A stretch of 64,000 nucleotides of DNA from a virus (Duplodnaviria > Caudoviricetes), in IMG/VR virus record IMGVR_UViG_2529292751_000006, positions 56,786-120,785 of that record; one strand, written 5' to 3'. Below, piece by piece: positions 15,891 to 38,564 of the stretch. The position numbers were made by a program, and so were the translations under genes. Under the pieces are notes generated by a model. The model saw only the letters and a list, made by a program, of their open reading frames with translations, searched no databases and was not told the DNA's origin. The first letter of the stretch is position 1. Every line of letters begins with the position of its first letter.

Positions 15891-18800
15891 TTACTTTTTG
15901 CACAGTGGATATGAACAATGTAAATGATTCCAGTGTCCTTTCGGATCGTATTGCATTGCACTTTCTCCATATTTACCATTCATTTCTTGAATAATATCCC
16001 AATCACCAAACACTAATCCTCTAAATCCAGCCTTTAAGCAACACTCTGCAAGCTTTCTAGCCTTTTCTTTATCAGTTCCATTTGGAAACCTCATTTTCCC
16101 ATTAATAACTTTCATTGTGTTTGGCGTATCAAGATCAGCAGCCCAACCAGTGCCGTGCCATTGATTATCACCCGGTCGCCATCCACTTGTGATATTAAAG
16201 CTATCTCCAGTAGCAGCTTTGTATAATTTAGCAACTTCGATAAGCAATTCACCTGTTGCTTTACGAACTTTACTTGTACCACCACCGCCTACAATTGTTA
16301 AGCCAAAATTACGCCCAGATAAATTATGTAAGTCAATGACATCTGGAGCACCACCACTTCCTAAGTGATATTTACTCTTTCCTTCTTTCCCTGTAACTAA
16401 TGGACATGAACTTGCGCCACCAGATCCTTCACCAACAGCTCCACCACCTTTACATGCACCAGCAGGTAAATTGCCATCATAGTAACGTAAAACTCGTTCT
16501 ACGTATTTCGAATCACCATATCCTGGTGGAATTCTTGAGATTCTACCAACTTTTTTAACCATAGATTCTGAGAAGCTATAGGCTAATTCATACGTATATT
16601 TCCCACCTCGGCTTATACAGTAATCAATAAATCCGCCGCCAAAATTGTATGATTGTAGAACAAGCTTAATGTCGCCTTTTGCTCTAGCTAACTGATTCTT
16701 GAAATGCGTTACACCTTGCTTGATACTTGCATCTACATTTTTTATATATCCAATTGGTTTACCCATGGACTCAGAAGACTGCATAACGTCAGGAAGCTTA
16801 TGATAGTTTCCTCCTGATTCTTGCATTGTTAATGCTTTTAGTATTTCAGCGTATGATCCAATTCCTTGTACTTTTGCTTCAGCTTCAATTTTAGGGCCGA
16901 TTACATCAAAGTATTTCGAAAGACCTTTTGCTTTGCCATCTGTCGGCACATCCCCTTCAGGAATACAAGTACCATCATCTTTGTTGCCAAAGAAGGATGT
17001 AACTTTGTCCCACAGATCTTTAAACCAACCGGTAATTTTGTTTTTTATTTTATTCTTCCAATCTTCCCAAGTTGTTTTTTCTTCTTCATATGTTGCTTTG
17101 GTTTCTCTTTTCCCTAATAATTCTAATCTCTTATTGATTTGCTCTAAAGCTGCTTTACGATCTTTATCATAAAGCTCAGTAAGTTTTTCAAAAGCAGGTA
17201 CTTGTTTTCTAAATGTATTATAAAAGCTACTTGCCATTTTGTTTAGATCAATAGGCTGTTCTGTAGGGCCATCTGATTTCATGCCCATTTGATCTTGAAG
17301 GTCATCATTTCTAAATTGCCAAGCATCCACACCAATAAACCCTAGAAGGAATGCAGAAACATCATTTGTCATAAGCTGTTTCCAAATGTCAGGCGCATCT
17401 CCAATGACAGAACCCTTGTGTCCATTTATACCTGCTGTATACTCTAATCCGCTTTTATGCAGTGGGGATATTAAACATGCTTGTCTCATGAATAGCCATC
17501 TTTCAATAAATTCCCCTATTGTTGAAGAAATAATATGGACTCCTAATGCCTCTATAGCTAATCCTAACCAACCGACTGGGCCCGCCATTATGTGAGCACC
17601 TGTCCAAAGAGCAGTTACAACACCACGTCCACCCTTTAATACTTTACCTATAGACTTAGAACCTTTCGCAATCAGAGTGCTTCCTTTAGCTTTCATCTTT
17701 ACATTTTTAAAACTATTATAGCCAAACTCTTTAGAATTCTGGAATATATTCTTTAGATTGTTTGAACCTTCTTCTCCTGTTAACTTAGCAAGTTGTTCAA
17801 GCAATCCATTCTTAGACCACCTTGCAATATCTTTGGAAGATACACCACCTTTTCTTAACTCATCGGCGGCGGCTATTTCTTTTCCATTTGGAGCCTTACC
17901 ACCAGTTACTCGGTCTTGAAATTTTTGACCTAGTTTGCTCGTATTAAATCGCTCTTTCATCTTATCAAAACGATTTTTTGTAGAGGACCATAGAGCATTC
18001 ATAATTGGTAAATGTCCTGCGTATTTAGAAGTTCTTAGTTTTTTGCGTAATGTATGTGCAATCAATGCGCTTCCTGCCAGTGCTTGTGCGCTTGCAAGCA
18101 ATGTCATGGCACGGCGGTCTGTATTTACAACTACGACATCTGGCTTAATTAAAGTAATATAGCCTTGTTCATGATTCATAATTTGAGTCACTTCTTTTAT
18201 TTCTGCTGGTCCAGCCATAGAATTAAACTCATCGTTAATCCACATTTGATCAAATGGCTTTACAGACGGATCGCCCATAACAGTTAAATAACCATCATAC
18301 ATATCTTTTACATAATCTCTTAAACCTGCTGCTGTTATTTTTATAGCAACACCTTCATCGTAATACCACTTCGGAAGTTTATTTAACAATCCACCAATTA
18401 GAGGGATGTTTTGTACCATGCGAATACCTTGTGCATTCATTGTAGTATCAATGTTTACAACTCTTTGTTTTTCAGGCCAAATATTTGTATCTACAAATAC
18501 TGGAGAAGTAGTATCCATTTCCCCTTCATTCATATATACACCAACAGCTACGGTATACATATTGTCTTCAGTAGTTTCTATTGAATTATCAATAATACTT
18601 GTTGCACTATCATAAACATGAAATTGTCTAAATGGTTTTAAGGCAGTTCCTTTTACTTCCTCACCATCAACAGTATAATCATAATGCAATGGGAAGTATG
18701 GTTTTCCTGAAAATATAGTATTTCTAAAGCCAAATGGGTGAACCGCAACAATATGATCATCACCGACAGCTGCGCATATATTTAATACATCCCATACGGT

Positions 18801-21800
18801 CTTATCGAATAAGCCAATATTAATACCTGGCTCATCTGCTTGCCCGATGCCAAACGCATCCTTAATTTTATTCCACCAGCCATCATGTTCTTCATTTGTT
18901 AATCCAGTAGTTTGATAGATATTCATATTGATTTCACCAACTGTTCGGCTATCTTTTCCAAACGTTGCTCCACCAATAAATCCACCGGCGACACCTCCAA
19001 TAGCTGCGCCAATTGGTCCCCCAATTAGAAATCCTCCAGAAGCTCCTACTGCTGCTCCGCCAAAGAATCCTCCGAGTTCACCCCATCCTTGCGGAGCTTG
19101 CTGATGTCCAAAATGCATAATACCTAAACTATGATTTTGAAATTCATCATTAGATAAACCTGCCCAAAGGTTAGCAAAAAATCCTTTTGAATCAGTTAAT
19201 AACTCATCTACAATTTCTGTTGGCTCTTGCTTAGAAAATAAAAATCCGCCTTCAGTGGTTTCATTCACATCTGCTCTAATTTTATTTGTTAATTCAATAC
19301 CATCATCTTGCGCAATCACTGTAATAGAAACCCCATTATTTTGAATAGAAGTTATTGTTCCATTCATAATCGTAGGCATACTCATAGGGTTTGAACCATA
19401 TCCCATTCTGAAATGAATACGTGTACCTGTGCGTAGCATAATACTTTTATAATAATTTGCATTCCTATGACGAGAACGCTCTGCTTCTTTCGCTACAGCA
19501 CCAGGCATAGTTAGCATTTTAAAGACTTCACCCATACCGGTGTTTGTTAAATCCATTGCTTTTTCAGAATCATCTAACGTACCGTATATATTGCACATCT
19601 CTATCGCTAATGTACTAGAAGCTTCTTTTCTACTGTTTGTATAAGTAATATCCATAACAGCTTGATAGTTAAAGAACTGATCTGACATTTTAACAGACCC
19701 CATATATTTCCCTTCATCAATAAATGTAAGGAAGAATGTAGGAAATGCTCTTACTAACCTTCCACGCATATCATATTTCACCATGTCGTGTAACATGCCT
19801 GTATGTATTCGGTTATCGTCTTTGAAGTCACTTTCTTTCATGTTTTGTTCTGGTTTTTTTGCATTTGGACCTGTGGTTTTAAAATCTTTCACAGGCAAGC
19901 CTTTTGTTTTTTCTTTAATTGTTTGATCAGACCATTCTTGATTATTAGAAGATGAATTCAACACTTTATTAATAATATCGATAACTTCTCTAGGTGGTCG
20001 TTTATTATCTTTTAATAAATCAACATATTCTCGATCATAACCAAGATATAACATAATCACTCCAGCAAAGCGTACCTTTTGTTGGTCCCAACCATTATTG
20101 GCATTCAATCCAAAGCAAGCATATACATTTTCTTCGTTATACACTTTCTTATCACTGGCATTTGACTTGGCAAGCATTTGATTTAGTTCAGTGTAATATT
20201 GAGACATCTTACGTACACCTTGTTCAACATTATATTCAATATTTTTACCAAGTAAATTTACATTAGAACCATACATCTTTCTGACTTTCATTATCCCAAT
20301 GTATTCTCCATCTATAGAGCCATCGTTATTTACATAGTATTTAAAGTTTTTATTCATCATAGTAGGAGAACTTGTTTTGCTATTTACTACTTTATCTTGC
20401 TTTGTATTTGTTCCTACATCATAGAATTGTTTTAATTCAGAATCTAGAGCCTTAGCAAATGCAACTGTAAAGTTTTGATTAATATTAAACTGTTGTGATT
20501 TTTCCCTAATAAGAGCTTCTGCTTGAGCTACAGAAAGTTTACTTTTATCAACAAGTTCTTCTGGAATAGCGCTATAACTAACTTTATTCTTACCTACTGC
20601 ATCTTCATATTCTTTCCTGCTATTCTTTAACTCTTCAGATGTAATGTCATTTACTTTCTCAATATTACCACCATTAATGCTTGCTTCTCCGCCTTTACCA
20701 TCCCTTAATACTGTTTGATAATTTTGTTGTGCTGCATTAACCAAGTCCTCAAAGAATAACGTCCCTTTTTTATATGTAATAAAAAAGTCAGGATCTACAA
20801 ACACACCGTTATTATAATTTTCTACTTTAAAGCCAGCTTCTTCAACTTCTCCATAAGTAGGGAGCTCTAAATCAGGATATACTTCAGCTGCTGCAAAGAA
20901 CTTACGTACAGCTTCTTCATAAACAGCTTGCTTTTCTGCATCCGCTTGAACGTTAGAACCTCCAAGGAATGATTTCAGTCCAGTCCATGCTTCTTTTGCT
21001 GCGGGTCGATCAGCAACGAATTGAGCCCATCTATTTAGTGGATTATCACCTATTCCATCCTCAAACATAGTAGCTGGGTTTAAGCTTGTCAGAAGACTCA
21101 AGATCCCTTGGTTTTCATATTGATTTATATCCCACTTTGCAGTTTCAGATAACCACTTCACTTCATTCATTTTACGTTCTGCTCGATTGTATGCAATCAT
21201 TGTCAAAGTGACCTCAAATACACCTGGCATTCCTTGCACAGTATTTGTTTGCATGTCTTCGATTGTTATATTTTTTATGCCAAATAATCTTGCGAGTTGA
21301 CTATCAAACTCAAGGAAACCATTTGCCATTTCTTTGTGATATGTGCGAATCAGATAAGATGATCTTCTTATTAACGATTCTAAGCTTGCAATAGATTCCA
21401 TGTCATGAGTAGTAAACCTTGCCATGATTATTGTATCTTGAGAACCCATATACTGATGGGTAGGAGATTCATCATGTTGTAATTGAGCGGCAGTAATTGT
21501 GTTTTCAAACCCTATAGATAAATCTGTTAGCGTTAAATTGGGTATATCCCATTCTTCATAGCCTACATCATATTCAAACATAGCTTTTTCATAAGTAGCA
21601 TCTAAATCTTTATTGAATTGCTCCTCTAGCCCCTCTGCACCCCAAAAATCTTCTTTCTTTCCTTCGATATATTTCTTAATCATCTTTTTCTTATCAGAAT
21701 TCCACTTTTTCATATAAACCAAATCATCTTCAGCAGCTATTCTAAATTTAAAATTATTATCTAGCTCTTTATATAATGGCTCATAATAAGAGCGGAATGA

Positions 21801-22310
21801 TTTTGCATTCTGAGGATTTAGGTTTCTTTGATAATGCCATCTAAATAATGGCCAATCAAACATCTCATCGTATGTTCTATCCTCATCATCCGCAATATAT
21901 GAATAAGGCTCAAATGAATATAATTGTATTTGAGCTTGTAAAGTTTGCGGGAATCCTGGTGTTGTTTGAACTGTTACTCCAGATACAGTAACAGCATCAA
22001 TCTTATGAATATCGTTTAAGTAAGTATTCTCTATCGGTAAAAATGGACACTTTTTTATTTGAGACAGTAAAGGTCTAAGCTCTTCATTCATATTATCTTT
22101 ATCAGGGAAAAACAGAGTGACTTCAATCACTCTGTCAAAATACCCCGATTCTTTAGGTAAGCTATTTCTAGCACGTAGAATCTTTACACGTTCATTCTTC
22201 ATTTGACGATGTATACTAATTGCGGTAGGTGGTACAAAGAATGCTGTATCCCCTATACGCAAATGATGTTCAAGTAAGCTCCCATAAGGAGTTCTCTGCG
22301 CAACTGGCAT
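15891..22310 (-). CDS. Giant baseplate hub / tail-associated peptidoglycan hydrolase (lysozyme-like and M15-type peptidase domains)
   Basis: Hub-like RIHFRMGYGSN..GTI..VIAQDDG; lysozyme-like MQESGG..DVMQSSES..QSYNFG; C-terminal ITSGWR..H..GWAAD..HLH. Confidence 0.8.
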   Translation of the reverse strand: MPVAQRTPYGSLLEHHLRIGDTAFFVPPTAISIHRQMKNERVKILRARNSLPKESGYFDRVIEVTLFFPDKDNMNEELRPLLSQIKKCPFLPIENTYLNDIHKIDAVTVSGVTVQTTPGFPQTLQAQIQLYSFEPYSYIADDEDRTYDEMFDWPLFRWHYQRNLNPQNAKSFRSYYEPLYKELDNNFKFRIAAEDDLVYMKKWNSDKKKMIKKYIEGKKEDFWGAEGLEEQFNKDLDATYEKAMFEYDVGYEEWDIPNLTLTDLSIGFENTITAAQLQHDESPTHQYMGSQDTIIMARFTTHDMESIASLESLIRRSSYLIRTYHKEMANGFLEFDSQLARLFGIKNITIEDMQTNTVQGMPGVFEVTLTMIAYNRAERKMNEVKWLSETAKWDINQYENQGILSLLTSLNPATMFEDGIGDNPLNRWAQFVADRPAAKEAWTGLKSFLGGSNVQADAEKQAVYEEAVRKFFAAAEVYPDLELPTYGEVEEAGFKVENYNNGVFVDPDFFITYKKGTLFFEDLVNAAQQNYQTVLRDGKGGEASINGGNIEKVNDITSEELKNSRKEYEDAVGKNKVSYSAIPEELVDKSKLSVAQAEALIREKSQQFNINQNFTVAFAKALDSELKQFYDVGTNTKQDKVVNSKTSSPTMMNKNFKYYVNNDGSIDGEYIGIMKVRKMYGSNVNLLGKNIEYNVEQGVRKMSQYYTELNQMLAKSNASDKKVYNEENVYACFGLNANNGWDQQKVRFAGVIMLYLGYDREYVDLLKDNKRPPREVIDIINKVLNSSSNNQEWSDQTIKEKTKGLPVKDFKTTGPNAKKPEQNMKESDFKDDNRIHTGMLHDMVKYDMRGRLVRAFPTFFLTFIDEGKYMGSVKMSDQFFNYQAVMDITYTNSRKEASSTLAIEMCNIYGTLDDSEKAMDLTNTGMGEVFKMLTMPGAVAKEAERSRHRNANYYKSIMLRTGTRIHFRMGYGSNPMSMPTIMNGTITSIQNNGVSITVIAQDDGIELTNKIRADVNETTEGGFLFSKQEPTEIVDELLTDSKGFFANLWAGLSNDEFQNHSLGIMHFGHQQAPQGWGELGGFFGGAAVGASGGFLIGGPIGAAIGGVAGGFIGGATFGKDSRTVGEINMNIYQTTGLTNEEHDGWWNKIKDAFGIGQADEPGINIGLFDKTVWDVLNICAAVGDDHIVAVHPFGFRNTIFSGKPYFPLHYDYTVDGEEVKGTALKPFRQFHVYDSATSIIDNSIETTEDNMYTVAVGVYMNEGEMDTTSPVFVDTNIWPEKQRVVNIDTTMNAQGIRMVQNIPLIGGLLNKLPKWYYDEGVAIKITAAGLRDYVKDMYDGYLTVMGDPSVKPFDQMWINDEFNSMAGPAEIKEVTQIMNHEQGYITLIKPDVVVVNTDRRAMTLLASAQALAGSALIAHTLRKKLRTSKYAGHLPIMNALWSSTKNRFDKMKERFNTSKLGQKFQDRVTGGKAPNGKEIAAADELRKGGVSSKDIARWSKNGLLEQLAKLTGEEGSNNLKNIFQNSKEFGYNSFKNVKMKAKGSTLIAKGSKSIGKVLKGGRGVVTALWTGAHIMAGPVGWLGLAIEALGVHIISSTIGEFIERWLFMRQACLISPLHKSGLEYTAGINGHKGSVIGDAPDIWKQLMTNDVSAFLLGFIGVDAWQFRNDDLQDQMGMKSDGPTEQPIDLNKMASSFYNTFRKQVPAFEKLTELYDKDRKAALEQINKRLELLGKRETKATYEEEKTTWEDWKNKIKNKITGWFKDLWDKVTSFFGNKDDGTCIPEGDVPTDGKAKGLSKYFDVIGPKIEAEAKVQGIGSYAEILKALTMQESGGNYHKLPDVMQSSESMGKPIGYIKNVDASIKQGVTHFKNQLARAKGDIKLVLQSYNFGGGFIDYCISRGGKYTYELAYSFSESMVKKVGRISRIPPGYGDSKYVERVLRYYDGNLPAGACKGGGAVGEGSGGASSCPLVTGKEGKSKYHLGSGGAPDVIDLHNLSGRNFGLTIVGGGGTSKVRKATGELLIEVAKLYKAATGDSFNITSGWRPGDNQWHGTGWAADLDTPNTMKVINGKMRFPNGTDKEKARKLAECCLKAGFRGLVFGDWDIIQEMNGKYGESAMQYDPKGHWNHLHCSYPLCKK

Positions 22311-22321
22311 AATCGTTCCTC

Positions 22322-25300
22322 CTAAACATTTTGTTGTACTTTATCTCTATACCAAATACGATTTAATTTTTGTGTATTATCATTATGATTCACTGTGATT
22401 CGTGTTGGTCCAGCGCTCATGCCTGTGTCCCTCATGCCTTGTGCAACCATATGAGACATTTGTTCTTTGTCCATGTTATTTCCGGATGCTTGAATACTAA
22501 TAGATGCATTTTGACTTGAATAACTGTCATTTGGCATTGCTATTGCTGGCACAGGTTCCTGTTTTCTTGATCCAGAATCTTTTACCTTTGAATCATCGTA
22601 ATGCATTACAGGTTTTTCGCTACTAAGAATATTGTACGATGTTATGCCACCTAGAGCAAGTGCACCGCCCATGAACATTGCCTTTTTGGGACTCATGTTT
22701 TTTACTTTATCTAGTAAGCCACTAGCCTTCTCAGAAGCTTGTGTTACAGCACCTGAAACCCCTTCACTAGCTGCGTTTCGCATCTTATTGACAAAGGATT
22801 TCTTATTTTCATTTCTTTGTTGCATTGGAGTTCGATTTAACTCTGAAACATCTGTCATACCTGCTTGAGCACCATCTGGTAGTTCTATATTTTGATGCTT
22901 ATAAAACATACCAAGCCCAGAATTAGAAGTAATCAATTCATCGGATGCTACATTGCCATGCATAATATCTAAAAGCTTTTGAATACCCATATCAGAAGAT
23001 AAACCTGTACTAGTACCTAATTTAAATCCATCAGATCGCAATCCTTTTTTCAGATTATTTAAAGCCATTGGAAGTTCTTCTGACACTTCATTTAAAAAGA
23101 AATCTTTGGCGAATTTGCCATCAAAGTAATCCTGATCAATGGATTTCGCTAAATTCCAGTTACTATTATAAATTGCATCTATCATTTCTAGTCCAGCTGG
23201 CTTTGCTCCGTGCTTTGCATCAATTAACTTTTGCTCTAAGCCACGACCAAATTCTTTTATCTTTTCATTAGCAGGTACATTATGACTAAACTCTTGATCT
23301 GCAACCTGTCGAAGGAATAAGTTTAAGTTAGATGCTCGTCCGATTGTCATTTTACCAATCTTGGAAGCTGTTTCTTCAGATGTATTAACAAGAGGCTTTC
23401 CAATATGCCCTGTGCCATCATCAGCTACACTTTGTAAACTCGGGCCGCTATATCGTCGCTCAGACAATGGATCATTAAGTCTTTCTCTTTCAGATACTAG
23501 TCTTTCGTTTTCTTTTCTTTCATGCTCACTCCATCTTCTTTCAAATTCAGTTTCTACCCGATTATGCGCCTGTTCCCATTCTTTTTGTACAGCTTTATCA
23601 TCTATAACTGCAATATGAGAATAGTCACCATCAGAGTCTGCATTCTGTAGCATAGAAGAAAATGAGGTTGTATGAATTTCACCAGGTTTTACATCATCAC
23701 TCATAATTAGTTTTGTAAATTGCATAGCTCCATCATGGAATGTTGGATAACGAACGTTAGCAGTATACATATGCTTACCTGCTTCTAACCTTTCTTCTAA
23801 TCCCATTCTTTGAGCCATGTCTTTTGAAATTGCAGTATATTGCCCTTCGCCATAGGTTTCTTGCAATTTCATTGTTGTATTTAAATCCATTAATTTAAAC
23901 AAACCAGATGCAGAAGTGCTCATATTTGCTTTATACACTCCATCAAATAACATACCTTTGGAGGAAGTTAATTCTTTAAAAGAATGATCTACATATCGAC
24001 TTACTGCCCCTTGTAGTTGACCATGAAATTGTTTCGCTTCTTCTATTGATGTAGCTTTTGTAACAGCATCCGCTTTTTTATAAATATTTGCGATATGATT
24101 TTGTAATTCTCGCAAATGCACATCACCATTAGTAGCATCTAGATTTGTAAACGGAATAAATATCTTATCAATCTCTTTAGGTGTATTTTTACCATTAAGG
24201 TTAACCGTGATTTTCTGATTTTGACCATCATTACGCTTAACAGAAGGAAGCTCTAGCCAATATCCATGTTTATTTTTCAGTTCTGGACTTCCATATTTTT
24301 CAGCTAAACTTTCTACTTTATTTTGACTAAATACCGTACCTCCATATAAAGCTTTATCTTTATATTGTTCTGGTAAGGAGTCAAATTCATTTGCTGATAT
24401 CCCTTTGAATGATAGTTGGTCTTCTTTTCCAAGCTGACCTAAAGAGTGAATTAAATTTTGGGATTCAGTTAATTTACCTTCATTTTTCATCATCTCTTGA
24501 TAGACATGCTCAAATGTTTTTTCCATCCCTCGACCTTTTAAAACGCCCATTTCTCGATGGCCCCACTTAACACCATCATATGAACCGTGAATCGGTTGAT
24601 TATGTTCATCAAATCCTAATACTGCTCTGCCAGAAGAATCTGTAGCTTTGCTGTAGTTCTCTACTTTTGACATGATTCCTTCTAAAATACCAATTCGAAC
24701 ACCTTCACGATTATGTAATCCGTATCGATTATTCTGCATACTAGTTACATTTTCAACATTAAATCCTTTTGATTGTAAATCTGAAAAGACCTTCTCAAAA
24801 GCATTTGTTTCTATTTTTGAATTTGAGCTATTATCAATAAATGCATTAATTCGGTCATCCCAAGCAAGACCGATATTTCCACTTTCAATAATATTGATTG
24901 CATTTTTTCGTTGGTTATTTTTCTTCATACCACCAACGTAATCTGATAATATTCGTGCTTCCCCTGACATCAACATACCAAAGTCCTTATGTTTTGCGAC
25001 ATCTGGATTAACAATTGCTACAATATCTTTAGCACCTGCTACAGCTTCAATAAGTCTTCTATCCGCATTTGTGTCGGTCATCTTTTCCCCAGATAACATA
25101 AGTTTAAAAGCATTTGTCTTATGCTGAAGAATAATATCTTTATTACCTTGAATTCCATCAACAATCTTAGTATCATGAGTCCCTTCATAGCGAATAGCTT
25201 CTCTGTATCCATTGTCATGTATGCGATAACCTAATGTATCCCCAGGCTTTACTGTTTGATTTAACTCAGCACCTTGAAAATCCTCATGCCATTCAAATTG

Positions 25301-28300
25301 CTTACCTTTTTCAAAGCGCTTCTCTCCATTTACTTTTAATATCTCTGCAACATCGTCAGCCAATATTCCTTGTTGCTCATATAAGCGTGGAAGTTTTAAA
25401 TAGTTAATTGAGCCATCTGTGGTTATATATCCTAGCTCTTTTAATAGATTATTTCCTTGCTTATTTTCAAACATCTCATGAATACGACCCATGAAGTCCT
25501 CTTGTGTCATATAAGCAGTTTTCATATTGATGCTTACCTTATTTGTGTTGTTTAGATTATACTCGTATTCTCTTTGCCTTGGGGTTAGTAAAAGTCTTCT
25601 GCGATCTATTCCTTCATATTTCCCTGATGCAAGATGCCCTTCTAGTTCTTTATCAATTAAATGAGCATTCATCGCTTGTACAGAGTTACCTCGGCCATGA
25701 TTGAAGAAATGACCATATGGTGTCACTTCACGGATATCTTGTAAAGACAATATCCCTTTTTCTACATGTGAATCTTTTAATCCAGAAGTATATAAATTTA
25801 CCCCGAGTTTTTCTTGTGACCATTGTGGCATAAGCTGTAGCATTTCATAGGTTTTAGCCATTTTAATATCATCAAAGGATACGCCTGAACGGAGGACTTT
25901 CTCTCCTCTAGCATTTGTAGTAAAGACATCTTCATAGAAATCCTTATCATTTAATTTTATTAGATTCTTACCATTTTGATATCCATTATGATAAAGGTCT
26001 TCAATCATAGCATTTGCCATTTTCACGTGTGATTGCTTTAAGTTATCTGATTGGTTATTTGCAAAAACATACGTATCATTTGCACCTAAGTCCATGCTTC
26101 TTGAAATACCTGACATACTTTCAGTTTCATTTCTTAGTGTTCGCCTAGCTCTTTTATTGGCTTCTTCATAATTGCCATCATTAGCCGCATCCATAATGTG
26201 AGACATTTTTTTAGCATAGCCTTGAGCAATTTTTTCAGCACTAGATATCATTTTGACATTCTTTCCATCCAATACTGCATAACTATGAGCGTTTAATGTT
26301 AATCCATCTATCTTATGAGTGCCATTGTCACTAATCAATGGCATTGTAAGTTCTAGTGCATTTGTCGGCTTAACCCCACGATGCAATTGATTTTGTACGC
26401 TTGTACTATAAGTATTATCATATACAAATAGTTTCATTACTTCGTTTGGATCCATAGCCATAGTAATACTCTTTGTTGGGTCGTTCTTTTTTACACTAGC
26501 AATAATAGTCTCTAATGCTTGCAAATTATTTGGGCGCAATCTAGAAAATCTCTCTCTATCAAGTATTTCTATAGATTTTGCAAGTTGCTCGCTTAACTCT
26601 AATTTCTTCCCCTTTATAGCTTTGTCATGAAATGATAGGACTACATTTTCAGTATCCTGAATTGCTTGTTTAATAATTTCATTGTTTTCTAATAAGCTGA
26701 GCTTCTTTATATTTTCATTTCCGTTCATTGAGGGAACTGTCATTTCTTGTTCATATTTTCCATAGTTTCGTTTACGCATATCTATTGCCATTTCACCGGC
26801 AGTCGCCCACGGAGAACCAGAACCCGTAATCAATTTTCTGTAAGTACCGCTTTGCTTTGTGTCTATTTTCCCTTGAGACTCCAAGTTATTTACTAAGTTA
26901 ACTAACCGTTCTTTAATTAAAGCTTGTCTATTATCGCCTTCCCCTACTCCTCTTTTTGCATATCCGTAAATATTGCTACGTGCTGAATCTATAGTTTCAA
27001 AATTAATAGAGCGACTATCATTTACTTCAGCATCATAGAACGATAATTTATGCATTTCAAAATCTTTCAGTTTCCTAGCTTCTTCTGGTGACTCTACCCT
27101 ATTAGAAATCAATTGTTGATAGGTCATTAAAGCTCGATCTCTTTTTTGATTTATTCCTCTTAATGCTGCCTGTCTTTCCTTCATATTTGTCTTATTTGCT
27201 GCACGTTGAATATCTGAAGAAAATGCTTCATCAATTTTTTTTACGGTTTCATCCAAGTATGGTAGTTCATCTATTAATCTCTTATGCATTTTAAAGAAAG
27301 CATCTTTTTCCGATTCATTGAATACATATTGCTTTTTCTCATCATCCCATAAACTATGAAAATCCATTTTTTTCATAAGATTATCTGTTGTAACAGTTCG
27401 TGATATTTCCTTCTTAGCTTGATTTCTGCTATAACCCTGCTGAATCAATGCTTCTATTTTTTCAGAGCGATTCTTTCCTGATCCTTCTAAATACTCTTGC
27501 ATAATTTTTGCGTTCTCAAGCATTCGTTTTAAACCAGAAAAACCTTTTGTTCCTCTTTCTGATGTTTCACCATTAATAATATTTAATCCTTTTCCTGCTC
27601 CGTCTAAGCTGAAGAAACTATCATATTTTCTTCGTGCACGATCAGACGTGATATGATGCTTAATTTCTCTCTGCTTTTCGGCATTAATATTATCCCACGC
27701 ATAAAATCGACTTTGAACAAAGTCTTGTAGTTCAGAAAAAGCATTCTCCCCTTTTCTTACAATATAGGAGTATTCATTTTTTTCTGGCTCGAAAAATCGA
27801 AAAGCTAATTTCTTCTCATTCTCATCACTCATATCATGCACACCTGCAAACTGATAGAAGGATTTCGAATTAATTACTGTCTTATTGAATCCATTTGATT
27901 TGTTAACAATGTTTCCTTCTTCATCAAACCCAACTTTAAATGATTCATCGCCATCTCGGTATGCCTGTACACCACCTGATGTAAATAAAACTTGTCCATT
28001 TCTCAATTCTGCATCATTCCATGTCATCTTTGTTTCATGGAATTTAAATCCTTGTCCTGGTAGAGCGTGAGCAGACTCGAATTCATTCAAAATGTGCTTT
28101 CTAGATTTTGCAATTAATTCAGCTGTAGAATCTGTATCTACCGTGGCATTGTGAGCCGAATCCTGTGTATCGCTTCCCAATACATGTCGATATGCTGCTA
28201 ATTTATCTTTTCCATATGGATTTAATTCAGGATTATATTCTGGATTCATCTGCTTTTTTAATTCGTTCGAATCCATATAGGCTGTTCGAATTACGTTAAG

Positions 28301-36191: not shown

Positions 36192-36674
36192 TTAAAGCTT
36201 TATTGGTGCACTTTGTGCAACGAATCCTGATTTATCCATAATCATCTCAGATAATAGGCTTGGAATTCCCGCTCTACTCTTTAACATCTTTTCAATAGTA
36301 AAGTTTCTTGGGAATAAAACACATTTCTCTGTAAACATTTCTTCACGATCAAGAGCCGTCAATGTCTGATCTCTAATAATCTCTCGATACTCAGGGCGTG
36401 ATAATGTTCTCCATACAAATGGTTCACCTTCAAATGGAGTAAAGTAAATCCCACCATATCGTTCTTTCCATTCTTCTATTTCACAACGAGTAGGACCATT
36501 TTTCACAACTGGTGCATTCCATTCTTCCTCAGAGTATTCTGTCCCATCTACACCAGTAAAAACAGGCTGCTGCTTCTTTTCAATATGTTCTTCATTTATT
36601 TCATGTTTTTCAACTATATCTGATTGTTTATTAGTATCTTCCTGTATTGTATTCTCTTTTTTAGCTTTTTCCAT
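36192..36674 (-). CDS. Tail assembly chaperone
   Basis: IEEWKERYGGIY..FVWRTL.R.EY..CVLFP..AGIP..L...I...SGF. Confidence 0.7.
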   Translation of the reverse strand: MEKAKKENTIQEDTNKQSDIVEKHEINEEHIEKKQQPVFTGVDGTEYSEEEWNAPVVKNGPTRCEIEEWKERYGGIYFTPFEGEPFVWRTLSRPEYREIIRDQTLTALDREEMFTEKCVLFPRNFTIEKMLKSRAGIPSLLSEMIMDKSGFVAQSAPIKL

Positions 36675-36688
36675 CTTTATTCCTCCTC

Positions 36689-36704
36689 ATGTAATGCATT
36701 ACAT
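36689..36704. promoter_or_regulatory. Perfect 16-bp palindrome ATGTAATGCATTACAT, candidate operator
   Basis: Intergenic, between a TATAAT and the RBS; its core recurs elsewhere in the window. Confidence 0.5.
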
Positions 36705-36743
36705 TACAATTATAATATCTTTATCCAAGTAAAAAAAGCTGTT

Positions 36744-37622
36744 TTATTCAATTGTTCCATATTGCATTGGACGATATATAGTTTCAACTGATTGTTCTTT
36801 ATTTTCATTGTTACTTCCTTGAGACATGCTTGCCAACGATCTTCCATTTAAATCTCTAGCAATGAATGAATATTGCTCTTGTATTGGTGCCCCTTGGTCA
36901 GCTGTTGAAATAGATTTAGACATTCCTGAAAGCTGAACACCATTAATTACATCTACTGTTACATTAGGCTTATTAAACTTAGTAGACTCATAAAATTGAT
37001 TACTTATATATCCATTAGTTTCTGATATCGCCCCATACTGAACTCTGATATCAAACCCGAATTGTGAATTATAAAAATACGGAGCATCATCATAACTCAT
37101 ATAATGACCATTATCCTTTTGAGAACCCCATATAGCACTCTCGTATTCATCAGCAATTTGATCAAAAGAACTTTTACCTAGTCTTGTTAAAATCTCATCT
37201 AATTTTAGATTTTGATAGTACTGCGGCTTAATTTTCCCCTCTTTTTCTCCATTCGAAACAGCATGAAAGATAGCATTAGCATTCTGAACAACTTGTTGTA
37301 AGTAACCAACAGAAGTAAAGTTTACTGAAAAAGCTCCTTGTATTAATCGCTTTCCTCTTGCTACAGCATCCATTGTATAAGAATGGTATCCGTATATAGG
37401 TAAAACTTCTTCAGATAATTGAAAAGCAATACTTGTAATCTCATCCACCCATATATCACCAAAATATAACTTTACATCAGCATTCGAAAAGTATTCAGAG
37501 TTAAACATTTGATATTCCACTCTTGTATCTTGACGAGCATACATATCTTGTCGAGGTGTTAATGTGCTTTGTAATGACTGTTTGTTCCCGTAATATCCTC
37601 TGTTTGTTACCATATTTAACAC
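36744..37622 (-). CDS. Tail tube-like protein (paralogue 3)
   Basis: YFS.AD..I.F...EE..PIYG...ARGKR.IQG shared with the tube protein. Confidence 0.7.
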   Translation of the reverse strand: MLNMVTNRGYYGNKQSLQSTLTPRQDMYARQDTRVEYQMFNSEYFSNADVKLYFGDIWVDEITSIAFQLSEEVLPIYGYHSYTMDAVARGKRLIQGAFSVNFTSVGYLQQVVQNANAIFHAVSNGEKEGKIKPQYYQNLKLDEILTRLGKSSFDQIADEYESAIWGSQKDNGHYMSYDDAPYFYNSQFGFDIRVQYGAISETNGYISNQFYESTKFNKPNVTVDVINGVQLSGMSKSISTADQGAPIQEQYSFIARDLNGRSLASMSQGSNNENKEQSVETIYRPMQYGTIE

Positions 37623-37624
37623 TC

Positions 37625-38509
37625 CTATAAAGACTGTAATTTCATTGAACTAGATAAATTTGTACGTTGCATTGGGTCGATATCTAAGGCATAAAACTCA
37701 TATACATTCTGAGTAAAAACATCATCAATGCTCAAGACCATTCCTTCTGTGTAAGTACTAACACCATATATACTCATGGAAGATTGCGCACCGAATTCGT
37801 TGGCCATTGATAAAGTAATATCAAACATAGGCATCTCATCCATTAGCATTCGATAACCAGATTCTTTTATTTCTCTCATGCATCTATACACAATACTTTC
37901 ATCAAACACTGTAAATCCTAGCACTCCAGAAATTGTACGCATCCCTCTTGTAAACCCCTTCATACTCACACGCCCCAATGCACGAACAGGGTATTTTTCT
38001 CTAAATATTGAATACGATAAGCTAGATAATTCTCCAAAAACCACAGGACCTTTTCCAGGAACATTAATACTACAAACCATATCTGCACCAGTATATGAAT
38101 TAAAATTCTTTTGATAAGCATCTGGAGCACTCTTTGCAGGGATATTAGGAATGTCTTTCTTTTTTCTGTTTGCGTTATCATCTAATTCTTTTGTTAGCAT
38201 TTGATATTTTCTTATATCTTGTATGGTTGATTCTATGAGCCTTATAGCTGTCTCTTGCTCATTTCCTTTAAGCAACTTCATAGCAAGCGAAATAAAGCTT
38301 CTCAATACCAGTAATGCACTCTCTGAATCTAACCTTTGATTAATTTCAGTCGAAGCTATTCTTACAAATAGAATAGGATCCTTAAATTGTACACCCGTAT
38401 TCCCCATCCATTGGATCAAGTCATACGCACCATTTGGAGAAGCTGACATTACTTTTGGATTTCTAATAAACGGTATTAAATTCTTAATTAATAAATTAAT
38501 AGATTCCAT
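37625..38509 (-). CDS. Tail tube-like protein (paralogue 2) with helical N-terminal extension
   Basis: SYTGAD..GEL..LSYSI.RE..RG.RTISG.L.F..FD..D.MP.FDIT.SMANE.G. Confidence 0.72.
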   Translation of the reverse strand: MESINLLIKNLIPFIRNPKVMSASPNGAYDLIQWMGNTGVQFKDPILFVRIASTEINQRLDSESALLVLRSFISLAMKLLKGNEQETAIRLIESTIQDIRKYQMLTKELDDNANRKKKDIPNIPAKSAPDAYQKNFNSYTGADMVCSINVPGKGPVVFGELSSLSYSIFREKYPVRALGRVSMKGFTRGMRTISGVLGFTVFDESIVYRCMREIKESGYRMLMDEMPMFDITLSMANEFGAQSSMSIYGVSTYTEGMVLSIDDVFTQNVYEFYALDIDPMQRTNLSSSMKLQSL

Positions 38510-38527
38510 ATGTTTCTCCTTTTTATT

Positions 38528-38559
38528 CTAAAATAGGACAGCAATTCTGCTGTCCTATT
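38528..38559 (-). terminator. Intrinsic terminator after the major tube gene
   Basis: AATAGGACAGCA-GAAT-TGCTGTCCTATT followed by TT. Confidence 0.7.
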
Positions 38560-38564
38560 ACTTA

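What the first reader, a model, noticed from the sequence alone, without database searches (positions are those of the whole stretch)
22322..36674. Tape-measure slot holds two giant non-canonical proteins: a possible ejected transcription module
Known: the gene between tail chaperones and the hub is normally the tape measure. Seen: no canonical repetitive TMP; instead there are a roughly 2020-aa protein with an OB/thermonuclease-like domain and the RNAP-exonuclease. Both carry Gly/Ala-rich hydrophobic segments (RNAP C-terminal KAMFMGGALALGGIT; partner LGIGVAATLGAL and AGATTGLVLG..IAGGLFGLG). Inference: both are loaded unfolded in the tail or head and ejected, possibly giving a membrane-tethered RNAP that transcribes or pulls in incoming DNA, with one or both doubling as the length ruler.
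Basis: inference. Interest (0 to 1): 0.78.

Follow-up and report, generated by a model that had tools for sequence, protein, structure and literature searches.

The report
Tape-measure-slot exonuclease–RNA polymerase giant protein
In this Bacillus jumbo phage, the gene that sits where the tail tape measure normally lies encodes a 2305-residue fusion of a proofreading-type exonuclease and a complete single-chain RNA polymerase, so the phage probably carries its own first transcription enzyme in the virion, as so far shown only for Thermus phage P23-45.

Summary
Between a split tail-chaperone pair (36192-36674, 35350-36135) and a giant gp27-type hub (15891-22310) lie two giant minus-strand genes: A (29254-35346) and B (22322-29239).

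Gene B encodes a DEDDh exonuclease (about residues 95-400), then a beta-like module (900-1586) and a beta'-like module (1601-2099). It carries an invariant RYPTFH...NADSDGD motif, a Gly-zipper helix and a roughly 70-aa tail domain. The AF2 model (pLDDT 81.8) matches RNAP beta subunits (Z 13-14.6) and beta' subunits (Z 9-10).

Protein A is also predicted to be globular (pLDDT 81.2). It contains an SNase/Tudor-SN-like OB domain at residues 1473-1593.

The module is that of Bacillus phage 0305phi8-36, where slot B was called the tape measure and both giants were found in virions by mass spectrometry.

- 30 of 31 giant representative proteins carrying the B tail domain have the RNAP motif. 0305phi8-36 gp146, the one studied member, lacks it.
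- 3 of 4 near-complete relatives also encode a YonO-like second RNAP.

Closest precedent: the tape-measure-fused virion RNAP of P23-45 (PMC10770324).

Not shown here: virion residence, a ruler role, membrane tethering.

Verdict: new variant of a known kind. Earlier scan notes exist on this same stretch only; I saw none on other DNA.

The parts
36690..36703 (.). Exact copy of the palindrome TGTAATGCATTACA. It lies 8 nt after a TATAAT and 16 nt before the start codon of the first chaperone gene. Candidate promoter or operator of the chaperone-A-B-hub transcription unit.
   Evidence: 15 sites with at most 1 mismatch in the 120.8-kb record, against 0 for the reversed control. 11 of the 15 lie in the non-structural 56 kb before the window.
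36192..36674 (-). Tail chaperone-like gene 1 (160 aa).
   Evidence: phrog_29362, E 3.6e-16. Same position as 0305phi8-36 orf143. The split G/GT-like chaperonin is described in PMC2147016.
36164..36188 (-). Terminator-like hairpin in the 56-nt gap between the two chaperone genes.
   Evidence: 11 pairs, 4 of them GC. Consensus scan only; function not shown.
35350..36135 (-). Tail chaperone-like gene 2 (261 aa). Its N-terminal part is paralogous to gene 1.
   Evidence: phrog_29362 E 1.6e-10 and phrog_29368 E 1.6e-9. Same position as orf144.
29254..35346 (-). Giant A: 2030 aa from the TTG, probably 2019 aa from the ATG at 35313; about 234 kDa. Homologue of the 0305phi8-36 gp145 virion protein.
   Evidence: 34.7% identity to ORF145 over residues 799-2024; 86 homologues.
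35167..35223 (-). A residues 42-60: N-terminal transmembrane-grade hydrophobic segment.
   Evidence: Kyte-Doolittle 1.56.
31042..31338 (-). A residues 1337-1435: the most conserved block of the family. No fold match was obtained for it. The only Acinetobacter phage ME3 match to A (residues 1348-1468) overlaps this block.
   Evidence: Cluster of invariant columns in the 71-sequence alignment. tblastn 33.6% identity to ME3 over 1348-1468. No Pfam hit.
30568..30930 (-). A residues 1473-1593: SNase/Tudor-SN-like OB-fold domain.
   Evidence: Foldseek best E 1.2e-3, TM 0.62 on the target. VIA Z 9.2-9.8, 86-107 residues aligned, rmsd 2.3-3.1. No Pfam SNase hit.
30256..30354 (-). A residues 1665-1697: pair of Gly-zipper-like segments.
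   Evidence: Kyte-Doolittle 0.6-0.8. One homologue is named 'glycine zipper 2TM domain-containing protein' by NCBI.
22322..29239 (-). Giant B (2305 aa, about 261 kDa): exonuclease - middle domain - beta-like - beta'-like - Gly-zipper helix - tail domain. It occupies the slot of 0305phi8-36 orf146, annotated 'hypothetical tape measure protein'.
28040..28942 (-). B residues about 100-400: DEDDh 3'-5' exonuclease domain.
   Evidence: Pfam RNase_H_2 24.8 bits (cut-off 22), RNase_T 23.2 bits (cut-off 24); phrog_403. Motifs at 113-121, 280-289 and 362-368, nearly invariant in 27 sequences.
24482..26542 (-). B residues 900-1586: RNAP beta/Rpb2-like module with conserved Lys residues (GEK1386, K1416-H-K).
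   Evidence: VIA Z 13.0-14.6 with 329-523 residues aligned, including the AR9 and phiKZ non-virion RNAP chains. The top 50 Foldseek rows are all second-largest RNAP subunits, best E 1.5e-9. Invariant columns.
22943..24439 (-). B residues 1601-2099: RNAP beta'/Rpb1-like module.
   Evidence: VIA Z 9.1-9.9 with 277-380 residues aligned to largest subunits.
23618..23638 (-). B residues 1868-1874: NADSDGD, the metal-binding DxDGD motif, preceded by RYPTFH at 1830.
   Evidence: A, D, S, D, G, D are invariant in 27 sequences. D, D, G, D are invariant in 8 more divergent sequences.
22619..22684 (-). B residues 2186-2207: conserved Gly-zipper-like helix.
   Evidence: Invariant G, L, A, Y, N, L in alignment A4. 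Kyte-Doolittle 1.15.
22325..22537 (-). B residues 2235-2305: C-terminal tail domain ending DNT..L.R.WYRDK. It is shared by slot-B proteins whether or not they contain an RNAP.
   Evidence: 49 representatives with E <= 1e-3.
15891..22310 (-). Giant hub C (2139 aa, about 240 kDa): gp27-type hub core, strong Gly-rich hydrophobic segments (1086-1118, 1576-1602), a lysozyme-like domain (1806-1921) and a C-terminal H-x6-D...H-x-H signature.
   Evidence: phrog_20474 2817 bits, phrog_167 (TMP) E 7e-10. Pfam Lysozyme_like 115.5 bits. PDB 4fdy E 1.7e-19.. The 0305phi8-36 ORF147 is annotated 'baseplate hub'.

Best explanation
The window is the structural arm of a 0305phi8-36-like jumbo Bacillus myophage, held as a provirus record. 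Its tail module reads: sheath, tube paralogues, split chaperone pair, giant A, giant B, giant hub.

Giant B occupies the tape-measure slot but is an enzyme. It has an N-terminal DEDDh exonuclease, a complete single-chain beta-beta' RNA polymerase of the multisubunit type with intact catalytic motifs, then a Gly-zipper helix and a small tail domain. That tail domain is the common denominator of all slot-B proteins of this lineage.

The most likely mechanism is as follows; every step from here on is inferred.
1. B is made late, together with the chaperones and the hub.
2. It is built into the virion through its C-terminal module. The tail lumen is the most likely site, loaded in the tape-measure manner.
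3. It is ejected ahead of the DNA and transcribes the first genes of the incoming roughly 200-kb genome.
4. In relatives that carry it, a YonO-like non-virion RNAP then takes over.

Giant A is a conserved co-delivered partner, with an N-terminal membrane anchor, an SNase-like OB domain and a Gly-zipper pair. With the hub's hydrophobic and lytic domains it probably forms or lines the passage through wall and membrane and handles nucleic acid.

Whether B, A, or both also set tail length remains open.
For: B is an RNAP.
- The AF2 model of residues 900-2099 has pLDDT 81.8 and pTM 0.73.
- Foldseek against the PDB gave at least 411 hits at E <= 1e-3, and all 50 top rows are RNAP second-largest subunits.
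- VIA gave Z 13.0-14.6 to beta-type chains for model residues 1-687, and Z 9.1-9.9 to beta'-type chains for model residues 702-1200.
- NADSDGD and RYPTFH are invariant or nearly so across homologues down to 31% identity.

Exonuclease.

Slot and synteny.
- The same order (chaperones, A, B, hub) is seen in 0305phi8-36, WH1, KLEB27-3, Moorella MTATph1 and Acinetobacter ME3.
- It is also seen in the 7 distinct IMG/VR loci; the 8th, L010, is identical to L008. Two show only one chaperone-sized ORF, and L008 begins inside gene A so its chaperones are not visible.
- The genes are packed 3-56 nt apart behind one motif-bearing promoter region.

Virion link.
- GenBank notes say gp145 and gp146 of 0305phi8-36 were identified in virions by mass spectrometry.
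- The full-length collinear homologues WH1 gp095 and KLEB27-3 gp034 (hmmsearch E 6e-35 and 2e-55) are annotated as structural proteins.

Tail domain.
- A profile of the last 210 residues, searched against 1.84 billion representatives, found 49 proteins: 31 giants of 2102-2729 aa, short fragments, and one 6781-aa protein with 28 matched stretches that I take to be a low-complexity artefact.
- 30 of the 31 giants carry RxP...DxDGD. All 31 match the exonuclease profile.

Two-RNAP scheme.
- PF05183 (the YonO/RdRP family) is present in 3 of 4 near-complete relatives that also have the slot-B RNAP, and in 0305phi8-36.
- The slot-B RNAP profile finds exactly one copy per genome.

Precedent: P23-45 gp96, a tape-measure-fused virion RNAP working with a non-virion RNAP. 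P23-45 relatives without the fusion keep only the non-virion enzyme (PMC10770324, passages). That mirrors 0305phi8-36 here.
Against: - There are no virion proteomics for this phage. I could not see the basis of the 'structural protein' labels of WH1 and KLEB27-3: no paper was found.
- The one slot-B protein with stated mass-spectrometry evidence, 0305phi8-36 gp146, lacks the RNAP. It is linked to B only by position and a weak C-terminal match (BLASTP E 0.056; hmmsearch domain E 0.1).
- B's modelled 1200 residues are a compact globular fold, not the extended helices of a tape measure.
- No TMP family matches B. Its tail domain was not found on any protein of ordinary tape-measure size.
- PF05183 was not detected in WH1, KLEB27-3, Moorella MTATph1, relative G004 or the window's own record. 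The two-RNAP scheme is therefore not universal. The own record is only 61% complete.
- No sequence-level link to any described RNAP family was obtained: PDB phmmer best E 0.19, and hhalign to YonO and orf99 gave E 0.3-0.4.
- Polymerase activity, template and promoters are untested.
Confidence: 0.6

Rival explanations
1. B, and A with it, is a virion-packaged ejection protein stored in the capsid, like N4 vRNAP, crAss-like gp66 or T7 core proteins. Its place in the tail module is then historical. Tail length would be set by something else, such as the TMP-like part of the hub or the unmodelled N-terminal 830 residues of A.
For: - Both modelled parts are large globular folds.
- No TMP family hit for A or B, while the hub has one (phrog_167, E 7e-10).
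- The P23-45 paper itself notes vRNAP fusions to large proteins in crAss-like and N4-like phages.
- A's closest named BFVD match outside the family is a 'Large polyvalent protein associated domain' protein (E 7e-37).
Against: - The strictly conserved position right after the chaperone pair and before the hub holds across Bacillales, Moorella and Acinetobacter phages.
- The C-terminal module is conserved whatever the enzymatic content, which suggests a docking role in tail assembly.
- No other tape-measure candidate gene exists in the module.
Confidence: 0.25
2. B is a non-virion polymerase that acts in the cytoplasm, for example on late genes, and merely sits in the tail operon.
For: Nothing in the sequence proves packaging. 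Some relatives have no second RNAP detectable by PF05183, so B could be their only phage RNAP for all gene classes.
Against: - An enzyme co-transcribed with tail genes would arrive too late to be useful unless it is packaged.
- The conserved C-terminal Gly-zipper and tail module is shared with the virion protein gp146.
- Homologues are annotated as structural.
Confidence: 0.07
3. B is first of all the length ruler, and its RNAP fold is an inactive relic.
For: 0305phi8-36 and one representative (P0155) do without the RNAP in this slot. B's length is tightly kept: 2256-2330 aa in 8 IMG/VR loci that are 31-54% identical to B.
Against: The metal-binding DxDGD, the RxP motif and the beta-side lysines stay invariant at 31-54% identity. 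An inactive relic would not be expected to keep them.
Confidence: 0.04
4. The exonuclease plus two-barrel core works as a proofreading polymerase on DNA, in the way PolD combines a two-barrel core with an exonuclease. It might, for example, process or fill the genome ends on entry, rather than act as a transcriptase.
For: - A DnaQ-type 3'-5' exonuclease is the usual partner of DNA polymerases, not of RNAPs.
- The exonuclease is kept in slot-B proteins that lack the RNAP.
- PolD shows that a two-barrel core can make DNA (abstracts listed; those papers were not read).
Against: - The best structural matches are RNAP beta and beta' chains over 300-520 residues, and no PolD chain is among the 50 rows shown. 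A family that is not listed is not excluded.
- The motif is NADSDGD, as in beta' (consensus recalled).
Confidence: 0.04

Closest known systems
P23-45 gp96, the tape-measure-fused virion RNAP of Thermus siphophages (Chaban et al. 2024, PMC10770324; abstract, sections 6, 12 and 13, and passages read)
   Same: - A two-barrel RNAP with a DxDGD motif inside the giant gene of the tape-measure slot.
- Hydrophobic segments in the same protein.
- A second, non-virion two-barrel RNAP elsewhere in the genome of some members.
- Relatives that lack the fusion keep only the non-virion enzyme.
- The same proposed logic of transcription coupled to DNA entry.
   Different: - This is a myovirus of Bacillales, not a Thermus siphovirus.
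- The RNAP fills most of the protein and lies towards the C-terminal side. In gp96 it is the N-terminal 1200 of 5002 residues, and the remaining roughly 3800 residues carry the membrane and metallopeptidase domains.
- The fold is closest to multisubunit beta and beta' (Z 13-14.6 and 9-10). The match to gp96 itself is only Z 7.1.
- This protein has a fused DEDDh exonuclease.
- The peptidase and lysozyme domains sit on the hub, not on B.
- A second giant (A) shares the slot.
- Virion presence and activity are shown for gp96 and not shown here.
0305phi8-36 gp145 / gp146 / gp147 (Thomas et al. 2007, not held; Hardies et al. 2007, PMC2147016, passages read)
   Same: The same module and gene order. 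A is homologous to gp145 (34.7% over half its length). The hub is homologous to gp147. B and gp146 share the slot, an exonuclease motif and the C-terminal helix and tail pattern.
   Different: - gp146 has no detectable RNAP, and its exonuclease motif is in mid-protein (residue 1221).
- 0305phi8-36 relies on the separate YonO-like orf99.
- gp146 was assigned as tape measure mainly from its length.
Multisubunit-type phage RNAPs (AR9 and phiKZ non-virion RNAP; PDB 7s00, 7ogp)
   Same: Their beta-like chains are among the best structural matches: Z 14.6 with 329 residues aligned, and Z 13.9 with 345 aligned. The jumbo-phage setting, with a virion and a non-virion enzyme, is the same (PMC7824862 passages).
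   Different: Those enzymes are split into several subunits and are encoded outside the tail module. B is one chain, with an exonuclease and a tail-docking end.
YonO / QDE-1 / crAss-like gp66 single-chain two-barrel RNAPs
   Same: A single polypeptide with both barrels. gp66 is virion-packaged.
   Different: No PF05183 hit in B. hhalign to YonO and orf99 was not significant. The structural matches are weaker, and they are not strictly comparable because they span both halves: QDE-1 Z 9.6, gp66 Z 6.0.
Polyvalent proteins of phages and conjugative elements (Iyer et al. 2017; recalled, not read here)
   Same: Giant multidomain proteins thought to enter the host with the DNA. A's best named BFVD match carries a 'Large polyvalent protein associated domain' label.
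   Different: No LPD Pfam family hits A or B. The fixed tail-module position is not typical of polyvalent proteins.

Membership tests
Two-barrel RNA polymerase, multisubunit (beta/beta') type | beta' double-psi beta-barrel with the metal-binding DxDGD motif (consensus NADFDGD, recalled) | tested here: met
   NADSDGD at 1868-1874 after RYPTFH at 1830. Invariant in 27 sequences; D, D, G, D invariant in 8 more divergent ones. Present in 30 of 31 giant representatives.
Two-barrel RNA polymerase, multisubunit (beta/beta') type | Fold of the second-largest and largest subunits beyond the barrels | tested here: met
   AF2 pLDDT 81.8. Foldseek top 50 rows all beta/Rpb2-type, best E 1.5e-9. VIA Z 13.0-14.6 (329-523 aligned) for residues 900-1586, and Z 9.1-9.9 (277-380 aligned) for 1601-2099.
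Two-barrel RNA polymerase, multisubunit (beta/beta') type | beta-barrel lysines that contact the substrate | tested here: inconclusive
   GEK1386 and K1416-H-K1418 are invariant or nearly so. Their equivalence to the beta lysines was judged by eye against a recalled motif, not by superposition.
Two-barrel RNA polymerase, multisubunit (beta/beta') type | Template-dependent RNA synthesis | not testable with these tools
   Needs a biochemical assay.
Tail tape measure protein | Gene lies between the tail chaperones and the baseplate hub | tested here: met
   A and B share this slot.
Tail tape measure protein | Match to a TMP sequence family | tested here: not met
   No TMP family for A or B in PHROGs or Pfam. 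The B tail-domain profile found no protein of ordinary TMP size. Only the hub has a weak phrog_167 hit.
Tail tape measure protein | Long, mostly helical, extended architecture | tested here: not met
   B 900-2099 and A 831-2030 are compact alpha/beta models with pTM 0.73 and 0.77. B 1-899 and 2100-2305, and A 1-830, were not modelled.
Tail tape measure protein | Protein length scales with tail length; the protein lies in the tail lumen | not testable with these tools
   The only tail length known is 486 nm for 0305phi8-36 (PMC4113786). At 0.15 nm per residue, gp146 gives 381 nm and B gives 346 nm.
Tape-measure-fused virion RNAP (P23-45 gp96 kind) | The RNAP-bearing protein is present in virions | not testable with these tools
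   Indirect only: mass-spectrometry notes for 0305phi8-36 gp145 and gp146, and 'structural protein' labels for WH1 gp095 and KLEB27-3 gp034.
Tape-measure-fused virion RNAP (P23-45 gp96 kind) | A separate non-virion RNAP in the same genome | tested here: inconclusive
   PF05183 was found in 4 of 9 records searched: G001, G002, G003 and 0305phi8-36. It was not found in the own record (61% complete), WH1, KLEB27-3, Moorella or G004.
Tape-measure-fused virion RNAP (P23-45 gp96 kind) | Homology to gp96 | tested here: inconclusive
   VIA Z 7.1, 289-309 residues aligned. That is within the range the tool calls common. No sequence match.
DEDDh (DnaQ/RNase T-like) 3'-5' exonuclease | Profile match and ExoI-III acidic/His motifs | tested here: met
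   RNase_H_2 24.8 bits (cut-off 22). RNase_T 23.2 bits, just under its cut-off of 24. phrog_403. Motifs at 113-121, 280-289 and 362-368, nearly invariant.
Staphylococcal nuclease (thermonuclease) for protein A | SNase OB fold | tested here: met
   Residues 1473-1593. Foldseek E 1.2e-3, target TM 0.62. VIA Z 9.2 to SNase and 9.4-9.8 to Tudor-SN-type domains.
Staphylococcal nuclease (thermonuclease) for protein A | SNase sequence family and catalytic residues | tested here: inconclusive
   No Pfam SNase hit even at E <= 1. The catalytic residues were not mapped by superposition. By eye, several seem to be replaced.
YonO/QDE-1 RdRP-type RNAP (PF05183) | Pfam PF05183 match | tested here: not met
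   No hit in B or anywhere in the own record. hhalign to YonO and orf99 gave E 0.3-0.4.

The most novel reading that the evidence does not exclude
The half-micrometre tail of this lineage is a cargo hold. A, B and the hub would be loaded by the split chaperone pair as a three-protein ejectosome. On ejection their Gly-zipper segments would build a membrane-anchored portal. At that portal a sigma-independent beta-beta' RNAP with its own DnaQ-type 3'-end editing nuclease would transcribe the entering genome and help pull it in. The same polypeptide would also serve as the tail-length ruler. That would make it a proofreading, tethered, single-chain 'cellular-type' RNAP, a combination not described for any polymerase.
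Probability: 0.15. Interest if true: 0.88.

Novelty: new variant of a known kind. Interest (0 to 1): 0.68.

Why it matters
This would be the second case of an RNA polymerase built into the tape-measure slot. It would be the first in a contractile-tailed phage, the first of the multisubunit (beta/beta') clade, and the first joined to a DEDDh exonuclease.

It is not a one-off. At least 30 clusters at 50% identity carry it, on roughly 190-230-kb phage or plasmid-like contigs named from Bacillus, Priestia and Paenibacillus.

It also changes how the founding phage of the lineage is read. 0305phi8-36 gp146, called a tape measure from its length, is the exceptional member that lacks the polymerase.

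The family offers a natural comparison: slot-B proteins with and without the RNAP, and genomes with and without the YonO-like enzyme. That comparison can address how large phages start transcription on entry, how a 260-kDa enzyme passes through a tail tube, and what a proofreading-type nuclease does next to an RNAP.

Tried and rejected
- **Nucleotide search.** Megablast of the region against the phage collection found nothing.
- **Sequence-only links of B to known RNAPs failed.** PDB phmmer best E 0.19, to an exonuclease domain. hhalign of the family profile against YonO and 0305phi8-36 orf99 gave E 0.3-0.4. tblastn of B hit only the N-terminal exonuclease part in 3 phages. The RNAP call therefore rests on fold and motifs.
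- **A complementary pattern was considered and rejected.** I first thought that a genome has either the slot-B RNAP or a YonO-like RNAP, but 3 of 4 near-complete relatives have both.
- **SNase by sequence.** My first Pfam scan used the wrong stretch, residues 1330-1500. The repeat on 1460-1600 was also negative.
- **PDB phmmer of A** gave only chance-level rows.
- **Sigma-70-type promoter scan of 21000-40000.** It gave fewer sites than the shuffles (50 against 81), so it is not informative.
- **No sigma factor domain (PF04542)** in the own record.
- **ESM Atlas on the hub's first 1450 residues** gave only leads below 0.9, such as baseplate hub and late control D.
- **Literature.**
  - No paper was held for WH1 or KLEB27-3.
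  - Thomas et al. 2007 is not held.
  - The searches found no description of an RNAP in the tape-measure slot other than in the P23-45 group.
- **Not tested.**
  - Whether stand-alone or split forms of the RNAP core exist; the 'shorter' and 'longer' searches were not run.
  - Expression; the run tools were not used.
  - Binding of the B tail to the hub.

Full report
**1. What is in the sequence**

All genes of the window run on the minus strand. The window is the last 64 kb of a 120,785-base IMG/VR provirus record that is estimated to be 61% complete.

The finding covers four ORFs:
- 36192-36674, 160 aa
- 35350-36135, 261 aa
- 29254-35346, 2030 aa from a TTG ('A')
- 22322-29239, 2305 aa ('B')

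A probably starts at the ATG at 35313, which gives 2019 aa. The homologue consensus starts there, the closest homologue is 2019 aa long, and an RBS-like GGAAGAGAG precedes it.

Directly downstream lies a third giant, 15891-22310, 2139 aa ('C'). Gaps between these genes are 3-56 nt. No tandem repeats occur in 15800-36700.

**2. What lineage this is**

Megablast found nothing. Protein searches tie the module to Bacillus phage 0305phi8-36 and its relatives:
- A matches ORF145, a 'virion structural protein', at 34.7% identity over residues 799-2024. It also matches Moorella phage MTATph1, KLEB27-3, WH1 and Edson over 69-87% of its length.
- C matches ORF147, the 'baseplate hub protein', and phrog_20474 at 2817 bits.

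In 0305phi8-36 the order is: sheath, tube, tube paralogue, orf143/144 ('hypothetical tail chaperonin'), ORF145, ORF146 ('hypothetical tape measure protein'), ORF147 hub. The GenBank notes say gp145 and gp146 were identified in virions by mass spectrometry.

In the window:
- the sheath is 39405-42326 (phrog_16991)
- three tube-like paralogues follow (phrog_9206, which PHROGs labels 'major head protein')
- the two small genes share phrog_29362.

Hardies et al. 2007 (PMC2147016, passages) describe the two-gene chaperonin. [quoted passage not shown]

The same gene order is seen in other phages:
- WH1: proteins of 2025, 2515 and at least 2320 aa.
- KLEB27-3.
- Moorella MTATph1.
- Acinetobacter phage ME3, where A is 1263 aa and B is 1603 aa.
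- The 7 distinct IMG/VR loci; L010 is identical to L008. There A is 1939-1985 aa where unsplit, B is 2256-2330 aa and C is 2060-2147 aa. Two of these loci show only one chaperone-sized ORF, and L008 begins inside gene A, so its chaperones are not visible.

**3. B is an exonuclease-RNA polymerase fusion**

*Exonuclease.* Pfam gives an RNase H-like/DEDD exonuclease domain near residues 245-375: RNase_H_2 24.8 bits against a cut-off of 22, and RNase_T 23.2 bits against 24. PHROGs gives phrog_403. The ExoI, II and III motifs lie at 113-121, 280-289 and 362-368 and are nearly invariant in a 27-sequence alignment.

*Catalytic motif.* At 1830-1874, B reads RYPTFH...NADSDGD. This is the pattern of the beta' catalytic barrel (consensus recalled). 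A, D, S, D, G, D are invariant in 27 sequences. D, D, G, D are invariant in 8 loci that are only 31-54% identical.

*Fold.* An AlphaFold2 model of residues 900-2099, built from the 27-sequence alignment, has mean pLDDT 81.8 and pTM 0.73 and is a compact alpha/beta structure.
- Foldseek against the PDB gave at least 411 matches at E <= 1e-3. All 50 rows shown are second-largest RNAP subunits: Pol I A135, bacterial beta, Pol III, vaccinia and ASFV. The best E is 1.5e-9.
- The Foldseek-independent aligner split the model into two halves. Residues 1-687 of the model (B 900-1586) align to beta/Rpb2-type chains at Z 13.0-14.6 with 329-523 residues aligned, including the beta-like chains of the AR9 and phiKZ non-virion RNAPs. 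Residues 702-1200 (B 1601-2099) align to largest subunits at Z 9.1-9.9 with 277-380 residues aligned.
- Single-chain two-barrel enzymes match more weakly: QDE-1 Z 9.6, P74 gp62 Z 8.3, P23-45 gp96 Z 7.1, crAss-like gp66 Z 6.0. Because these span both halves, the numbers are not strictly comparable.

*Other features.* Conserved GEK1386 and K1416-H-K lie in the beta-like half. Their identification with the beta lysines is by eye. Sequence-only methods did not link B to any described RNAP and B has no PF05183 hit.

So B is a single-chain beta-beta' polymerase of the multisubunit type with its catalytic signature intact. Its activity is inferred, not shown.

**4. The C-terminal end of B and the tape-measure question**

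The last 210 residues contain three elements:
- a conserved Gly-zipper-like helix (G..LAL.G..GYN.L; Kyte-Doolittle 1.15)
- a Pro-rich linker
- a roughly 70-residue domain ending DNT..L.R.WYRDK.

BLASTP of B against 0305phi8-36 gp146 finds only this helix region (E 0.056). A full-length family HMM gives gp146 a marginal C-terminal domain (E 0.1) and Moorella CDS0031 E 3e-4. WH1 gp095 and KLEB27-3 gp034 are collinear full-length homologues (E 6e-35 and 2e-55).

A profile of the 210 residues was run against 1.84 billion representatives and found 49 proteins at E <= 1e-3. Of these, 31 are giants of 2102-2729 aa. The others are short, apart from one 6781-aa protein with 28 matched stretches, which I take to be a low-complexity artefact. 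I take the short ones to be fragments, without checking. None has the size of an ordinary tape measure.
- 30 of the 31 giants carry RxP...DxDGD at a constant distance from the end.
- All 31 match the exonuclease profile, one of them in mid-protein.
- 28 of the 31 match the beta' profile at E <= 1e-3.
- gp146, examined alongside, has an ExoI motif at residue 1221 but no RNAP signal.
- ME3's slot-B protein has neither domain, but has a hydrophobic segment about 100 residues from its end.

The constant features of slot B are therefore its position and a C-terminal hydrophobic-plus-tail module. The Bacillales branch adds the exonuclease, and nearly all of it adds the RNAP.

The tests that bear on 'tape measure' gave mixed results:
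- The position criterion is met.
- The family match is not met.
- The extended helical architecture is not met for the modelled parts.
- Length scaling is not testable. The 0305phi8-36 tail is 486 nm (PMC4113786). At 0.15 nm per residue, gp146 gives 381 nm and B gives 346 nm.

The only weak TMP-family hit in the module is on the hub (phrog_167, E 7e-10, residues 1035-1540). The hub also has the strongest hydrophobic segments (Kyte-Doolittle 1.47-1.72), a lysozyme-like domain and a C-terminal H-x6-D...H-x-H signature, read by eye from the invariant columns.

A rough volume estimate is possible. I assume a lumen of 4 nm diameter, which is a recalled typical value, and the 486-nm tail of 0305phi8-36. 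The lumen would then hold about 6100 nm3. Three copies each of A and B need about 1800 nm3. Tail-lumen storage is therefore not excluded on volume. This is inference.

**5. Protein A**

No Pfam or PHROG family matches A. There are 86 homologues of mostly 1930-2060 aa. They are more conserved than B on the same contig: on one 216-kb contig, 69% identity for A against 50% for B.

The model of residues 831-2030, from 71 sequences, has pLDDT 81.2 and pTM 0.77 and is globular. The only domain with clear PDB matches is 1473-1593:
- staphylococcal nuclease by Foldseek, E 1.2e-3 and target TM 0.62
- SNase and Tudor-SN-type domains by VIA, Z 9.2-9.8.

Catalytic competence is not established.

In the viral structure library, the matches are presumably family members such as WH1 and 0305phi8-36 (these accessions carry no names). 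Beyond them is a 'Large polyvalent protein associated domain-containing protein' at E 7e-37, and an uncharacterised protein of a virus that also has a YprB RNase H-like giant.

Other features of A:
- a transmembrane-grade N-terminal segment (42-60, Kyte-Doolittle 1.56)
- a weaker Gly-zipper pair (1665-1697)
- a very conserved block at 1337-1435, with no fold match obtained and overlapped by the ME3 match at 1348-1468.

**6. A second RNAP in relatives**

PF05183, the YonO/RdRP family, was found in 4 of 9 records searched. It is present in 0305phi8-36 as orf99 (also PMC2147016 and PMC7824862 passages) and in relatives G001, G002 and G003, which are 97-100% complete and also have the slot-B RNAP. 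It was not found in G004, WH1, KLEB27-3, Moorella or the own record.

In G001 the PF05183 gene lies about 52 kb upstream of gene B. If gene order is collinear, the equivalent position here would fall beyond the end of the truncated record. This is inference.

The slot-B RNAP profile finds a single copy in the own record, G001, KLEB27-3 and WH1, and none in 0305phi8-36 or Moorella.

The pattern resembles P23-45. [quoted passage not shown]

**7. Transcription context**

An exact copy of the palindrome TGTAATGCATTACA lies at 36690-36703. It is 8 nt after a TATAAT and 16 nt before the first chaperone gene.

With at most one mismatch, the motif occurs 15 times in the record, against 0 for the reversed control. 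Eleven of the 15 lie in the 56 kb before the window. The lead came from an earlier scan note.

The chaperone-A-B-hub block therefore seems to be a transcription unit of its own, carrying a phage-wide signal. A terminator-like hairpin sits between the two chaperone genes.

**8. Reading**

*Shown:*
- the gene order
- the exonuclease and RNAP folds and motifs
- the SNase-like fold in A
- conservation and distribution of the family
- the second RNAP in some relatives.

*Inferred:*
- virion residence, from the mass-spectrometry notes on the 0305phi8-36 counterparts and from annotations of true homologues
- ejection and early transcription, by analogy with P23-45, N4, crAss-like and phiKZ-like phages
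- tail-lumen loading, from position and the conserved C-terminal module
- membrane insertion, from the hydrophobic segments.

*Open:*
- which protein is the ruler
- what the exonuclease does.

The exonuclease is kept even where the RNAP is absent, so it has a role of its own.

It is not established for this phage.

**9. Novelty**

The principle of an RNAP in the tape-measure gene was published in 2024 for P23-45. Searches of the held literature found it described only for that group. The jumbo-phage survey PMC7824862 (passages) lists only the YonO-like enzyme for 0305phi8-36.

The present family differs in several ways:
- virus morphotype
- RNAP clade
- domain order
- the fused exonuclease
- the partner giant.

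I therefore class it as a new variant of a known kind. One caveat applies: supplementary tables that I could not open may already include it.

Noticed in passing
window 36690-36703; own record G000 positions listed: The palindrome TGWAATGCATTWCA occurs 15 times with at most 1 mismatch in the 120.8-kb record, against 0 for the control. Eleven of the 15 lie in the non-structural 56 kb before the window. Within the window, one exact copy sits just upstream of the chaperone-A-B-hub block, 8 nt after a TATAAT, and three 1-mismatch copies lie at about 16700, 22597 and 60161. It is a candidate phage promoter or operator.
   Followed up: partly
window 36164-36188 (minus strand): A terminator-like hairpin lies in the 56-nt gap between the two chaperone-like genes. 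It might set the ratio of the short chaperone to the downstream products, in place of the G/GT frameshift. Consensus scan only.
   Followed up: no
L008/L010 44-7276; L006 15989-23142 (KLEB27-3 gp031-gp033); proteins P0096, P0112: Gene A is interrupted in some relatives. In L008/L010 it reads 1400 aa + a 300-aa inserted ORF + 620 aa. In KLEB27-3 it is gp031 / gp032 / gp033. Two distant homologues carry a LAGLIDADG domain (PF14528). Mobile elements seem to target this gene.
   Followed up: no
L005 21721-29077 (Moorella phage MTATph1): The slot-B gene is split by an inserted transposase and a second ORF that looks, by eye, like an ATPase (Walker A motif GPPGVGKT). The N-terminal piece is 1309 aa with an exonuclease motif. 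The C-terminal piece is 313 aa and has the tail domain.
   Followed up: partly
window 15891-22310: The hub is a 2139-aa, 240-kDa fusion. It combines a gp27-type core, a Gly-rich loop (1086-1118), a second hydrophobic segment (1576-1602), a lysozyme-like domain (1806-1921) and a C-terminal H-x6-D...H-x-H peptidase-like signature (read by eye). It is the most conserved of the three giants, at 44-66% identity in 6 relatives.
   Followed up: partly
window 36744-39332: Three consecutive genes (292, 294 and 255 aa) all hit phrog_9206, which PHROGs labels 'major head protein'. By position they correspond to the tail tube and tube paralogues of 0305phi8-36, so the PHROG label looks wrong here.
   Followed up: no
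L017 (Acinetobacter phage ME3, KU935715.1 19607-43981): A jumbo phage of a Gram-negative host has the same module: sheath, tube, chaperonins, A, B, hub. Its A (1263 aa) and B (1603 aa) are much shorter, and its B has no exonuclease or RNAP motif.
   Followed up: partly
protein P0123: A 6781-aa representative matched the Gly-rich part of the B tail profile in 28 stretches. I take it to be a low-complexity repeat protein and not a relative.
   Followed up: no
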